Of a stretch of 64,000 nucleotides of DNA, positions 30,270 through 35,298 are shown piece after piece. Position numbers and translations under genes: made by a program. How positions within the stretch are numbered: position 1 is the first letter of the stretch; every line of letters starts with the position of its first letter. Source of the stretch: Anaeromyxobacteraceae bacterium (GTDB lineage: Bacteria; Myxococcota; Myxococcia; Myxococcales; Anaeromyxobacteraceae); NCBI GenBank assembly GCA_047602405.1, contig JASGHJ010000002.1, positions 2,112,001 to 2,176,000 of the forward strand, written 5' to 3'. A model generated the notes under the pieces. The model was not told the DNA's origin, made no database searches, and saw only the letters and a program-made list of their open reading frames with translations.

Positions 30270-32120
<1,851 letters not shown>

Positions 32121-32172: not shown

Positions 32173-32352
32173 CTAAGAGCTGTCCCATAAGTCCCGCTTG
32201 AGGTTGTGAAGGACGGAGACAGCGGCCACGGTGTCCGCGAGGTAGCGGCCGCGTCGGCGGTGCGGGAAGCATGCGCCGGAGCGAGCGAGGTCGCGCCAGG
32301 GGAGGGCCGCGAGGACGAGCAGTCGGTGAGACGAGATGAGGTATGCAGGCAC
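32173..32352 (-). pseudogene. Internally deleted IS5-family (DDE_Tnp_4-like) transposase remnant, 59 codons
   Basis: Manual translation VPAYLISSHRLLVLAALPWRDLARSGACFPHRRRGRYLADTVAAVSVLHNLKRDLWDSS*; RRRG..LHNL resembles IS5/ISL2-type C-termini; ends in the left TIR. Confidence 0.6.
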
Positions 32353-34375
32353 GGCACCCTGGAATCTCGGGCGGTGCCTCGGTTCGCGCGAGGGCTGGGC
32401 CTGAACGCCCTGTCAGGGGTTTGGCGTAGCGTGAAGATGTGAAAGTCGAGGCCAAGCGGACCCGCGGTCCGAACCGTCAGGAGCCCTGGGCGCGCCGCCC
32501 CGAGGACGGCGTGTCGGTCCTGCGGCTCGCGCTCGACGTCCGCGATCCCCTGCAGCGCAGGCGGCTCGAGCGGATGTTCTCGGACGCGTACCGGGTGCGG
32601 CGGGCGCTGCAGCGGGCAGCCCGCAGCCGCGCGCGGGCCTACTGGGCGGCGAGGCACGAACGGGCCCGGGACGGCGCGGGCACGCGCGACCGGCTCGGCC
32701 TGAGCCGCGACGCGCTCGAACACGCCGCCTACGCCTGCCTCGACGCGGCGCCTCACCTCCGGCGTTTCGTCACGAAGGCGCTCGCGATGCACCTCGCCGA
32801 CTCCGTCTGGTCGGCGGTGGAGCGGCACGTGTTCACCGACGCGACCGGGAAGCGTCAGGGGCTGCTCCACGTCGGGCGGTGGTTGGACTTTCGGAGGCTG
32901 CCCGGCCGAGCGCGCTCCCATACGAAGGAACGGAAGTGGGAGACCTTCCGGCTCCACGGCTCGCTCGGCGGTCATCGTGAGGCCGCGTCTTCGGCTCCAA
33001 CCGGGCGCGTCGACTGGTGGGCCTACCAAGGTCCGCTGGTGCTCGTGTTCAGCGGGCTCGCCGACGGCACGCTGGTCCTCCCGGTGCGGCTGCCGTCCGC
33101 TCCCTGCAACCAGACCATCCTCGACTACTACCTCGCCGACCCGAGCCTCTGGCACAAGGTCGATGTCGTCCGTACCCGAGCGCCGCACGCGCCGGGCGGC
33201 TGGCGCTACGAGGCCCACCTGATGGTGCTGAAGGAGCCCTACGTCTCGCCCTCGACGAGGGCACGCCGGGCGGAGGTCGCCCTCGCCGAGGTGGACCGGG
33301 TAGCGGGGGTGGACGTCAACGTGTCGAACCTGACCGTCGCCTCCCAGCTGGCGGGAGGCAATCTTCGGCTCACGCGGATCGAGCGCGACGCGGCCACGAA
33401 GGAGCGGGACCGTGCCCGGGGACGCCGCGAGCGTCGCAGGCAGCGGGCTCTGGAGCGGTCACGCCGCGCCGCGAACCAGGAGCAGTACCGGCTCTCGAAG
33501 CGCCAGGAGAAGCGCGCCCGTCGGCGCGCCGCCGCTGGCCTTTCGCCGGTGGAGGTCATCCCCCAGGGCCCGCGGGTCGCGAGGTCCAACGGCGTGCCGC
33601 TCCAGGCCTACCGGCGCGAACGGCTCACGCACAGTCACCGGAGGCTCCGGGCGGAGGAGGTCGCCGACGCCGCTGCTGCTTCGCAGGCCCGACGGGACCG
33701 TGCCCGGCGGGTGGCCGCGGAGGTCGTCCGCACGCACGGCTACAAGCTCTTCGTCGAGGAAGGCTCCATCTCCGCCTGGGCGCGAAACTGGGGCCGCGGC
33801 GTCGCCGCTTTCACGCCGGGCCTGCTCGTCTCGGCCATCGACCGCGAGGCCCAGGCGGTTGCATCGGTCGCCGAGGTCGCGGGCGGCGTCGTCCGGATCC
33901 CCACCCGCACGACCACGCTCTCCCAGCGCTGCCCCTGCGGCGCCCACGTACCGAAGACGCTCGCCGACCGGGTCCACCGCTGCCCGCACTGTGGCCTCGA
34001 AGGTGACCGCGACGCCGTCTCCGCGGTGCTCTCGAGCTTCGTCGTGCTCGACGGCCCCGGCGAACCCGCTTCGGCGCGCGTCGACTACGCCGCCGCGAAC
34101 CGCGCCCGCCTCGAAGCCCAGCGCCTCCTCACTCCCGATCAGCCTCTCGGGTGGCAAGACACCCGGTCCGAGTCAAACGACCTCTTCGTCCGCGAGGCCA
34201 GTTGCCCCGCGTGGCGGACGTCCACACCGGCCTCGTCGCCGGTGGCTCGGCGAACGCCGGAACGGCCACAGGCCCTACCCGGAATGAGCCTCTCTTACGA
34301 GAGTCCACGTCCGAGCGGGCCCGATGGCGAACCGGCATGCCCCACTCGCCGATTGGCGAATTATGGGACAGCTCT
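32176..34375. mobile_element. Non-autonomous TIR-bounded IS carrying a tnpB-like gene and an IS5-like transposase remnant
   Basis: Perfect TIRs AGAGCTGTCCCATAA (32176-32190) / TTATGGGACAGCTCT (34361-34375); TA duplicated at 32174-75 and 34376-77; reconstructed empty site CTAG; more A/T-ending codons than neighbouring genes. Confidence 0.88.
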
Positions 34376-34378
34376 TAG
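32439..34378 (+). CDS. tnpB: Large TnpB/Cas12-like RuvC RNA-guided endonuclease (about 646 aa if a 1-nt deletion near 34255 is restored)
   Basis: RuvC-I AGVDVNV (D292), Arg-rich helix, RuvC-II LFVEE (E440), CPCG..CPHC zinc ribbon, RuvC-III DRDAVSA (D525); shifted frame ends ELWDSS-TAG at the right TIR. Confidence 0.85.
34145..34375 (+). ncRNA. Candidate omega/reRNA scaffold overlapping the tnpB 3' tail
   Basis: Stems 34148-53/34160-65, 34187-93/34214-20, 34225-31/34238-44, 34290-94/34299-303 and 34346-50/34355-59 lie between RuvC-III and the right end. Confidence 0.45.
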
Positions 34379-34602
34379 TGCGGGTGCCCGCGCCGGTCGT
34401 TCGCGAACAGGCCGGCGAAGTCGCGCGGCTGCTCGTGCACGCGGAACAGGCGGCACTTCTCGCAGGACCAGCTGTCCCAGTCGAGCTTCACGGCCACGTC
34501 GAGGCAACCGTCGTAGTGCAGGCAGTAGAGGTTGCGGTGCCCCTGGACGGTCGTCTCGGAGCGGATCAGCTGGAGGAGTGGAGTGGGGTTCGGTGATTCC
34601 AC
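34375..34602 (-). CDS. Small Cys-rich hypothetical protein (75 aa)
   Basis: AGGAG RBS then GTG 34602; HRNLYCLHYDGCLD..WSCEKC. Confidence 0.7.
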   Translation of the reverse strand: MESPNPTPLLQLIRSETTVQGHRNLYCLHYDGCLDVAVKLDWDSWSCEKCRLFRVHEQPRDFAGLFANDRRGHPH

Positions 34603-34863
34603 GAGCTGTCTCCTGGTCGTCGAGGAGTGCAACGGCCACTCGCTCGGACGATTCCCTGCCGGGGTGCGTCGGTGGTGTGCGCGCATGGTGTGTCGCGGCC
34701 CGGTGCGGGGGGAAGCCCCCAGCGGGGCGGCGCGGACGCGGCACCTACATGAGTCCCGTGTTCACGCGACCTTGCCTGGGCTGGGTCATCCTGGCTGTAT
34801 CCTTCTGGGACGCGCCCGGCAGCCCTGTTTGCTCCTCCCGAAGGACGCGGCAAAGGATCACGG

Positions 34864-35298
34864 ATGACGCCCGACCCGACCTGCAGCGCATGCCGGCTCG
34901 CCTCCGGCGCGGAGGTGCCGCCGGGCGGGATCGTGCACCGCGAGGCCGGGCTCCTGCTCCACGCGATCCACGGCCCGAGCCCCCTGCCCGGCTGGCTCGT
35001 GCTCACGAGCGAGGTGCACGTGCGCGCCTGGCCGGACCTCCCGGCGCCGTCGCTCGCGGCGCTCGGGCCGCTCGCCGCCCGCGTGATGCGCGCCCAGCGG
35101 CACGTCCTCGGCGCGGAGCACGTCTACGCGTTCGCGATCGGCGACGTCGTGCGGCACTTCCACCTGCACCTCGTGCCGCGGTACGCGACGACGCCCGATC
35201 GGCTGCGCGGCCGCGGGGCGTTCGACGCCTCCCCCGCCGAGGCGCTCGCGCAGGACCTCCTCGCGGACGCCGCGGCGCGGGTCGCGCGGGCGCTCTGA
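34864..35298 (+). CDS. HIT-family hydrolase
   Basis: CSAC N-terminus; HFHLHLVPRY histidine triad. Confidence 0.88.
   Translation: MTPDPTCSACRLASGAEVPPGGIVHREAGLLLHAIHGPSPLPGWLVLTSEVHVRAWPDLPAPSLAALGPLAARVMRAQRHVLGAEHVYAFAIGDVVRHFHLHLVPRYATTPDRLRGRGAFDASPAEALAQDLLADAAARVARAL

What the first reader, a model, noticed from the sequence alone, without database searches (positions are those of the whole stretch)
34145..34395. Candidate omega-RNA at the right end, with a guide that would match the empty site
Seen: after RuvC-III the ORF becomes a featureless tail over about 230 nt holding at least five stems, ending at the TIR; the only frameshift in the gene (near 34255) lies here, outside the nuclease core. 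Established: TnpB reRNAs overlap the gene 3' end and take their guide from the right flank. Inference: the guide is about TAGTGCGGGTGCCCGCGCCG (34376-34395) and the TAM derives from the left flank (..GAGCC/TA). Cutting element-free alleles would offset cut-and-paste loss.
Basis: inference. Interest (0 to 1): 0.7.

Follow-up and report, generated by a model that had tools for sequence, protein, structure and literature searches.

The report
IS5-type transposon's TnpB guide RNA
The last 230 bases of a TnpB nuclease gene in an IS5-type jumping gene show the compensating base changes of a conserved folded RNA across about 80 relatives; this RNA likely guides the nuclease to the empty insertion site and is predicted to use bases copied from that site to complete its own fold, in a transposon pairing already catalogued but, in my searches, untested.

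Summary
Window 32176-34375 is a 2.2-kb element with perfect 15-bp TIRs, inserted at CTAG with TA duplicated; a related genome holds the empty site. Sister copies carry a divergent IS5-type (not IS630) DDE transposase; this copy has lost it. The tail 34149-34378 covaries as an RNA: 30 of 50 pairs change on both sides in 61 ends, 24 of 50 in a held-out set, at most 3 in coding control windows; pN/pS is 0.94 against 0.40 in the core. A pseudoknot joins loop AAGA (34156-59) to UCUU (34373-76), whose last base is the duplicated T. In the ISDra2 register the guide then starts at 34379, not 34376, and the TAM is CTAG; the filled junction reads TTAG and escapes. The 1-nt deletion at 34254 is real but not a sign of tolerance: 53 of 60 tails keep frame. 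Expression, cleavage and precise excision are untested. DDE-linked TnpBs, including ISL2, were listed in 2023; this scan noted the same kind of RNA in another genome and a sister copy in this one.

The parts
32173..32175 (+). Left half of the CTAG target: C plus the duplicated TA (32174-32175)
   Evidence: Sequence; C, T, A in 55, 55, 57 of 57 left junctions; empty allele in G195 has one TA
32176..32190 (+). Left terminal inverted repeat, 15 bp
   Evidence: Exact reverse complement of 34361-34375
32176..32262 (-). Remnant (last 29 codons) of the IS5-type DDE transposase that is whole in sister copies C and D
   Evidence: tblastn of the copy-D transposase, residues 237-265, 86% identity; Pfam DDE_Tnp_1 and DDE_Tnp_4 on the whole protein
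32439..34148 (+). TnpB core, residues 1-570: RuvC D292 (33312), E440 (33756), D525 (34011); C4 zinc finger 33930-33992
   Evidence: Invariant in 48 of 48 aligned proteins; PF07282 above cut-off; Foldseek best matches Cas12f, TnpB, Cas12m
34149..34378 (+). Predicted omega-RNA scaffold, overlapping the disordered TnpB tail, the right TIR and the target-derived TAG
   Evidence: Covariation, coding controls and G-U strand bias, pN/pS
34149..34164 (+). 5' hairpin; its loop bases AAGA (34156-34159) are the 5' strand of the predicted pseudoknot
   Evidence: 3 of 6 pairs change on both sides in each of two sets; AAGA loop kept in five actinobacterial relatives
34168..34250 (+). Second domain: near-invariant closing helix 34168-34173/34245-34250 with inner helices 34192-34198/34204-34210 and 34226-34228/34241-34243
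   Evidence: Helices 3-5; the closing helix does not vary on both sides, so it rests on conservation only
34254..34255 (+). 1-nt deletion in this copy, in an unpaired linker; shifts the tail frame so the ORF reads through the end to 35543
   Evidence: Only gap of the window copy within the gene against 5 sisters; absent from the other 60 rows
34256..34336 (+). Long stem of four stacked covarying helices (34256-60/34332-36, 34265-75/34317-28, 34280-83/34310-13, 34290-94/34299-303)
   Evidence: 18 of 24 pairs change on both sides; 15 of 24 in the held-out set
34338..34370 (+). Terminal hairpin of variable sequence whose 3' strand is the inner part of the TIR
   Evidence: z below -1 in 58 of 61 relatives, median -3.4
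34361..34375 (+). Right terminal inverted repeat; 34373-34375 plus 34376 form the 3' strand of the predicted pseudoknot
   Evidence: last two bases CT in 66 of 66 right junctions
34376..34378 (+). Duplicated TA plus target G: predicted last three scaffold bases and, in in-frame relatives, the tnpB stop codon
   Evidence: TAG in 66 of 66 right junctions; in frame as stop in 53 of 60
34379..34394 (+). Predicted guide (about 16 nt; 3' end unknown), host-derived
   Evidence: Conservation ends after the G at 34378; first 14 nt match the G195 empty allele after CTAG; register inferred from ISDra2 (PMC10097598)
34375..34686 (-). Neighbouring host ORF (103 aa, no Pfam match) whose stop codon is the insertion site: TAG in the empty allele, TAA after insertion

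Best explanation
The stretch 34149-34378 is a conserved, covarying RNA fold at the right end of an IS5-type TIR transposon that carries a TnpB gene with intact catalytic residues, and it likely serves as that TnpB's omega-RNA, predicted to direct cutting of the element-free site. Shown: the element inserts at CTAG and duplicates TA; the scaffold covaries on the + strand; the empty allele exists in a relative. Inferred: read-through transcription gives an RNA whose 5' loop (AAGA) pairs with the last three TIR bases plus the duplicated T; A and G complete the scaffold; the guide starts at 34379. TnpB then reads CTAG, the transposase's own target, as TAM and cuts about 15-20 bp downstream in an empty allele. 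The filled junction reads TTAG and is spared, so the C must be read whichever base the guide starts at. Recombination with a filled copy would restore or spread the element. This copy has no transposase and a frameshifted tail; it was probably moved in trans, and its RNA could load TnpB from sister copies.
For: Covariation: 30 of 50 pairs with a change on both sides, 96.5% of cells paired, 0 of 500 shuffles as high, slid controls 31-41% paired; the same structure carried to 21 new ends plus the window copy: 24 of 50, 97.1%. Six upstream coding windows of equal length in the same 45 elements give 0-3 such pairs and alifold energies of 0 to -8.4 against 27 pairs and -57.5. G-U cells 186, A-C cells 44, which points to a + strand single-stranded molecule. 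Tail pN/pS 0.94 with flat variation over codon positions; core 0.40. Pseudoknot: three pairs nearly invariant; the fourth is A-U in 76, G-C in 5, A-C in 2 of 83 rows, and one loop change gives G-U; AAGA and TCTTAG persist in five actinobacterial relatives, four of which stop the ORF before the TIR. ISDra2 pairs -5 to -3 by Watson-Crick, -6 and -2 non-canonically, with the guide at +1 (PMC10097598); the same register here gives 34379. Fixed flanking bases and TSDs are absorbed into IS607 and Fanzor scaffolds (PMC10711439). Empty allele CTAG plus 14 matching bases in G195. D292, E440, D525 and four cysteines invariant in 48 of 48. Right ends end in T in 66 of 66; left ends begin with A in 44 of 57. 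The only right end with C before TAG in the genome is a relic that has lost most of the scaffold. None of the six whole copies' guides matches more than 7 nt after any genomic CTAG.
Against: No expression, binding or cleavage data. The pseudoknot rests on one covarying pair, and a single origin of its G-C form is not excluded; two rows break it. The left/right asymmetry is weak in the held-out set (left A in 11 of 12 well-registered ends), the junctions were found with motifs containing CTA and TAG, and kin are not independent; the invariant T is equally explained by the pseudoknot alone. The frame through the tail is kept in 53 of 60, which the RNA does not explain. A review argues that DDE cut-and-paste elements gain little from TnpB because excision already leaves a break (PMC13565253); precise re-formation of CTAG after excision is not shown here. 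Two of four reciprocal empty sites read CTAC, and two more orthologous sites lack CTAG. This copy's guide can fold on itself (6-bp hairpin). The protein scores below all three NCBIfam TnpB cut-offs.
Confidence: 0.68

Rival explanations
1. Same omega-RNA and nuclease, but the guide starts earlier, at 34376 or 34378, with a TAM ending in C or CTA.
For: In IS200/IS605 systems the guide starts at the first base after the element end (PMC10711439). A start at 34378 with TAM CTA fits the junction data equally well; the pseudoknot register differs slightly between systems (ApmFz2 uses -4 to 0, PMC11832414).
Against: T34376 pairs with A34156 in 60 of 60 and 22 of 22 rows. A start at 34376 leaves one conserved C as TAM, since nothing upstream is conserved. 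Invariant flank bases join the scaffold in IS607 and Fanzor systems.
Confidence: 0.14
2. The RNA guides binding without useful cutting: TnpB represses or regulates, for example by blocking re-use of the site or acting on the convergent host gene to which the guide is antisense.
For: Cas12m structures are among the fold matches. A host gene ends convergently at the right junction in 32 of 54 loci by a crude test, against about 30% of genomic CTAG sites. DDE excision may not need a second break.
Against: The D-E-D triad and zinc finger are invariant in 48 of 48 and the core is under purifying selection. The gene stays inside mobile elements: transposase next to it in 60 of 62 metagenome loci, and two copies 2 mismatches apart at different sites.
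Confidence: 0.1
3. The structure is not a guide RNA but a DNA end signal for the transposase or an mRNA stability or termination element.
For: The terminal hairpin includes part of the TIR. No Rfam family matches.
Against: G-U over A-C bias (186 to 44) and a 230-nt multi-domain fold with a 5'-loop to 3'-end pseudoknot at one end only. Relics with TIRs but little scaffold exist (F, L124). No terminator-like site.
Confidence: 0.04
4. The family system is real but this copy is decaying: the 1-nt deletion gives a 1034-aa read-through product and a shortened RNA linker, so neither part works.
For: Of 54 elements with the whole core on the contig, 6 have an out-of-frame tail and 3 of those also have a broken core, against 3 of the other 48. 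The transposase is gone.
Against: The core is intact, every covarying helix is kept and the deletion lies in an unpaired linker. The ISDra2 tail is dispensable in vitro. The deletion may be an assembly error. This reading does not exclude the best explanation for the family.
Confidence: 0.3

Closest known systems
DDE-transposase-associated TnpB branches DDE-1 to DDE-6 (Altae-Tran et al. 2023, PMC10691335; partners given as ISL2, IS630, IS1031 in the review PMC13565253)
   Same: TnpB next to a DDE transposase, inverted terminal repeats, TnpB 3' end within 250 bp of the end, solo copies with the same ends moved in trans.
   Different: In the passages I read, that paper only suggests an omega-RNA for these branches and gives no structure, TAM or test. 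I could not see Fig. 4 or the supplementary tables, so which branch this is remains open.
ISDra2 TnpB and its omega-RNA (IS200/IS605; Nakagawa et al. 2023, PMC10097598)
   Same: RNA overlapping a disordered C-terminal tail, structured protein and structured RNA barely overlapping, 5' loop to 3' end pseudoknot just before a flank-derived guide.
   Different: Y1 peel-and-paste element without TIR or TSD and with scarless excision; protein 408 aa against about 650 here; scaffold ends at the element end, whereas here it is predicted to take in three target bases. No sequence match of the RNA was tested.
IS607 TnpB ISXfa1 and Fanzor2*/Fanzor1 in TIR transposons (Yoon et al. 2023, PMC10711439; SpuFz1 in Saito et al. 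2023, PMC10432273)
   Same: Invariant flanking bases or the TSD are absorbed into the scaffold; TIR forms part of the RNA; TAM contains the 5' target bases (CATA for SpuFz1); RNA-only or truncated 'ghost' copies.
   Different: Serine recombinase or eukaryotic hosts; Fanzor1 has lost the pseudoknot, which is kept here. No evidence of close kinship was sought; RuvC-II here has the canonical glutamate position by motif.
IS5 family, ISL2-like group (group assignment recalled from domain architecture)
   Same: Single 265-aa DDE_Tnp_4-type transposase with N-terminal HTH, short TIRs, TA duplication at CTAG.
   Different: Carries a divergent tnpB; best NCBIfam match NF033581 scores 50.5 against a cut-off of 140; not compared with ISfinder.

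Membership tests
TnpB omega-RNA (OMEGA) system | TnpB/Cas12f-like fold with RuvC D-E-D triad and zinc finger | tested here: met
   below NCBIfam family cut-offs, model pTM 0.44
TnpB omega-RNA (OMEGA) system | Conserved structured RNA overlapping the gene 3' end and the right element end | tested here: met
TnpB omega-RNA (OMEGA) system | Pseudoknot between a 5' loop and the bases just before the guide | tested here: inconclusive
   Complementarity kept in 81 of 83 rows, one covarying pair, independence of the changes not shown; motif kept in distant relatives
TnpB omega-RNA (OMEGA) system | Variable flank-derived guide and a fixed motif that adjoin in the empty allele | tested here: met
TnpB omega-RNA (OMEGA) system | RNA is expressed, binds TnpB and directs TAM-dependent DNA cleavage | not testable with these tools
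   Needs small-RNA sequencing and interference assays
DDE-associated TnpB (DDE-1 to DDE-6) | DDE transposase within 1 kb of tnpB | tested here: met
   Copies C and D; 60 of 62 metagenome loci with enough upstream DNA; only a remnant in the window copy
DDE-associated TnpB (DDE-1 to DDE-6) | Inverted terminal repeats around both genes | tested here: met
   9-15 of 15 matches in 42 elements with both ends
DDE-associated TnpB (DDE-1 to DDE-6) | Placement in one of the six published tree branches | not testable with these tools
   Branch alignments and tables are not in the held supplement
IS5 family | IS5-type DDE transposase | tested here: inconclusive
   DDE_Tnp_1 and DDE_Tnp_4 pass Pfam cut-offs, HTH_Tnp_4 does not; NF033581 is the best NCBIfam match but below cut-off
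IS5 family | Short TIRs and a 2-4 bp target duplication | tested here: met
   15-bp TIR; single TA in all five alignable empty sites
IS630/Tc1-mariner | IS630-type transposase (DDE_3) | tested here: not met
   No such family among the Pfam and NCBIfam matches of the partner transposase, although the TA duplication at CTAG looks alike
IS200/IS605 or IS607 | Y1 or serine recombinase TnpA, no TIR, no TSD | tested here: not met
   DDE partner, TIRs and TA duplication

The most novel reading that the evidence does not exclude
A bacterial cut-and-paste transposon whose nuclease is armed by integration: three bases of the CTAG target finish the guide RNA's pseudoknot end and supply the tnpB stop codon, the same four bases are the TAM, and one terminal T of the TIR both pairs in the pseudoknot and hides the filled site. 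Excised or mis-inserted copies would have no working RNA, and insertion at host TAG stop codons leaves those genes intact.
Probability: 0.3. Interest if true: 0.72.

Novelty: new member of a known kind. Interest (0 to 1): 0.5.

Why it matters
Almost all tested bacterial TnpBs sit in elements that excise without a scar. A 2026 review (PMC13565253) asks why a DDE cut-and-paste element would keep one and calls for characterisation of such systems. This family gives exact, testable predictions: scaffold limits, a pseudoknot that uses the target duplication, TAM CTAG, guide start, a natural empty allele and intact autonomous copies. It would also be a bacterial parallel to how Fanzors adapted to TIR transposons, and a TnpB with a new TAM from GC-rich hosts. 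The RNA itself is an expected feature of TnpB, so the surprise is moderate.

Tried and rejected
IS630 assignment (suggested by TA at CTAG): rejected by the partner transposase. Rfam: one chance match at E 4.9. Sequencing runs: no RNA holder listed and no run holding half the words, so nothing on expression or on the deletion; no reads were laid. Viral contigs: no relative among 26 candidate stretches. Promoter and terminator scans: none. PDB by sequence: one weak match, E 0.3. Excision-footprint idea (CTA-N-N-TAG): 0 such 8-mers of the predicted form in this genome and no excess in element-bearing genomes among 37, so not supported. More empty sites: no joined site in G000 for 4 of 8 foreign elements; copies A and C have diverged orthologous sites in G195 and copy B's flanks lie on different contigs; D and E not tried. 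A wider actinobacterial genome search could not be centred, so distant relatives rest on five plasmid records. No covariance model was built. Look-up of earlier findings by sequence returned nothing. Rows dropped: five doubtful left-end calls (L012, L017, L058, L064, L089); near-identical right ends (69 to 61); three false anchors and three duplicates of the first set before alignment A4; L140 and L157 (unpublished genomes) from all analyses; L132 and L092 from the tree.

Full report
The element. Window 32176-34375 (2200 bp) is bounded by an exact 15-bp inverted repeat and flanked by TA on both sides, reading C-TA on the left and TA-G on the right. The genome (6.16 Mb, 2 contigs, 74% GC) holds six copies with both ends and one right-end relic. 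Copies C and D carry, on the opposite strand at the left end, a whole 265-aa DDE transposase (Pfam DDE_Tnp_1 and DDE_Tnp_4 above cut-off; best NCBIfam match IS5 family NF033581, below cut-off). The window copy keeps only its last 29 codons. Copies A and B, also without transposase, differ at 2 of 2198 bases and sit at different sites, so deletion derivatives have moved recently, presumably in trans. The nearest protein relatives carry source names in Anaeromyxobacter and other myxobacteria; five plasmid records of Actinobacteria hold 43-49% identical proteins, four annotated with the same divergent transposase. A transposase lies upstream in 60 of 62 metagenome loci with enough DNA.

The target. 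Over distinct junctions the right side reads TAG in 66 of 66 and the left side C, T, A in 55, 55, 57 of 57, with no conservation further out (the search motifs contained these bases with up to three mismatches allowed, so the counts lean upward). In genome G195 the two flanks of the window copy are adjacent and read CTAG with one TA, followed by 14 bases identical to 34379-34392. Of eight foreign elements tested against this genome, two have empty sites with CTAG, two with CTAC and four gave no joined site. CTAG occurs 1073 times in the genome against 4717 expected.

The protein. Residues D292, E440, D525 and four zinc-finger cysteines are invariant in 48 aligned proteins out of the 120 listed. 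PF07282 passes; the three NCBIfam TnpB models do not reach their cut-offs. An AlphaFold2 model (mean pLDDT 66.8, pTM 0.44) matches Cas12f, TnpB and Cas12m structures best and is disordered from residue 571. The library-wide search found 148 clusters at E below 1e-30.

The RNA. In 61 non-redundant right ends (mean identity 72%, lowest 55%) conservation begins sharply at 34149 and ends at the G of TAG. For the consensus structure plus a pseudoknot, 30 of 50 pairs change on both sides and 96.5% of cells pair; 0 of 500 shuffles reach this and slid controls give 31-41%. The same structure carried to 21 ends found later, aligned with the window copy, gives 24 of 50 and 97.1%. Because relatedness can inflate such counts, I folded six upstream coding windows of equal length from the same 45 elements: 0-3 two-sided pairs against 27 in the tail. 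G-U cells outnumber A-C cells 186 to 44, placing the fold on the + strand. The unalignable last hairpin folds better than shuffles (z below -1) in 58 of 61 and uses the inner TIR as its 3' strand. The tail has pN/pS 0.94 and equal variation at all codon positions; the core has 0.40 and third-position excess (45 elements). Two deletion derivatives end just upstream of the scaffold and keep it whole (L123, L155); two lose most of it (F, L124) (11 examined).

The pseudoknot and the guide. Loop bases AAGA (34156-34159) are complementary to UCUU (34373-34376); the last U is the T of the duplicated TA. Three pairs are invariant but for one G-U; the fourth is A-U in 76, G-C in 5 and A-C in 2 of 83 rows, two of which are duplicates. 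The G-C rows form two supported pairs and one unplaced long branch on an open fork, so one origin is not excluded. The loop AAGA and the end TCTTAG persist in all five actinobacterial relatives, four of which stop the ORF before the TIR. In ISDra2 the pseudoknot pairs -5 to -3, with non-canonical pairs at -6 and -2 and the guide at +1 (PMC10097598, passages). Setting U34376 as -3 makes A34377 -2, G34378 -1 and the guide start 34379, with TAM CTAG. This matches the finding that IS607 and Fanzor RNAs absorb fixed flanking bases and TSDs (PMC10711439, passages and sections 25-26). It is inference by analogy. One point holds whatever the start: the filled junction differs from the empty site only by T for C before TAG, so a cutting enzyme must read that C or destroy its own element. 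Right ends end in T in 66 of 66 and 24 of 24; left ends begin with A in 44 of 57 but in 11 of 12 of the later set, so the asymmetry is not clearly replicated. The relic F, which lacks most of the scaffold, is the one right end in this genome with C.

The frameshift. The 1-nt gap at 34254/34255 is the window copy's only indel inside the gene against five sisters and lies in an unpaired linker. It is not evidence that the tail is free: 53 of 60 tails are in frame to the terminal TAG, none of 60 has an internal stop in that frame (21 of 60 do in the next frame), and out-of-frame tails are enriched in elements with broken cores (3 of 6 against 3 of 48). Why the frame is kept is unexplained.

Function. 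For IS200/IS605 elements TnpB cuts scarless donor joints and recombination restores the element (bioRxiv 10.1101/2023.03.14.532601, passages). The same logic is the most likely here, but it needs empty CTAG alleles to meet the enzyme, by precise excision or by incoming DNA; neither is shown, and a review notes that DDE excision already leaves a break (PMC13565253, passages and section 20).

What is known. Altae-Tran et al. (PMC10691335; passages, section 9 and searches of the one held supplement) describe six DDE-associated TnpB branches with inverted repeats; the review names ISL2, IS630 and IS1031 partners. Figures, tables and additional files were not visible, so the branch cannot be named and they may already show this family. 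Six searches listed no paper that tests an IS5-linked TnpB or describes its RNA; the library lacks most subscription papers. I also read passages of PMC11832414 and PMC10432273. Earlier notes of this scan report the same kind of RNA in another genome and a sister copy in this genome; they came after my tests and did not change the reading.

Verdict. A real, well-supported omega-RNA candidate of an IS5-type TnpB family: new member of a known kind, interest 0.5, with the guide boundary corrected by 3 nt.

Noticed in passing
window 34375-34686 (-); L125 3995-3998; right flanks: Insertion at CTAG often falls on a host TAG stop codon and regenerates a stop (TAA or TAG). A gene-like frame ends at the right junction in 32 of 54 loci and at the left in 16 of 41, against 30-35% of genomic CTAG sites by the same crude test.
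   Followed up: partly
both element ends, e.g. L008 490-492 and window 34376-34378: Both divergent genes run to the element ends and end in similar peptides (WDSS-like), each using the target-derived TA plus the next target base as stop codon.
   Followed up: partly
L070, L073, L088 left flanks; L039 right flank: Tandem CTAA or TTAG units directly beside the junction in 3 of 56 left and 1 of 66 right flanks (up to four units), far above chance; may record repeated insertion and excision, but no free footprints were found in this genome.
   Followed up: partly
L008 1567-2829 (G000 C2, copy D): An ISAs1-family transposase gene (NF033564 above cut-off) is inserted between the transposase and tnpB of copy D, whose tnpB is frameshifted.
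   Followed up: no
L123 (G284:C13 about 617630-618180); L155: Mini-elements that keep both ends and the whole RNA scaffold but lose nearly all of tnpB, like RNA-only ghost elements.
   Followed up: partly
L012 996-1153 (G000 C2 2661893-2662048): Right-end relic without left end or most of the scaffold; the only right junction in the genome reading CTAG.
   Followed up: partly
window 30270-32120 (-): Angiotensin-converting-enzyme-like peptidase M2 gene (PF01401, E 4e-218) starting 55 bp from the left end of the element.
   Followed up: no
window 34864-35298 (+): HIT-domain protein gene (PF01230, just above cut-off).
   Followed up: no
L127-L129: Mycobacterial plasmid members have a diverged scaffold with a longer 5' loop and stop the ORF about 24 nt before the end; one has tnpB annotated in two pieces.
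   Followed up: no
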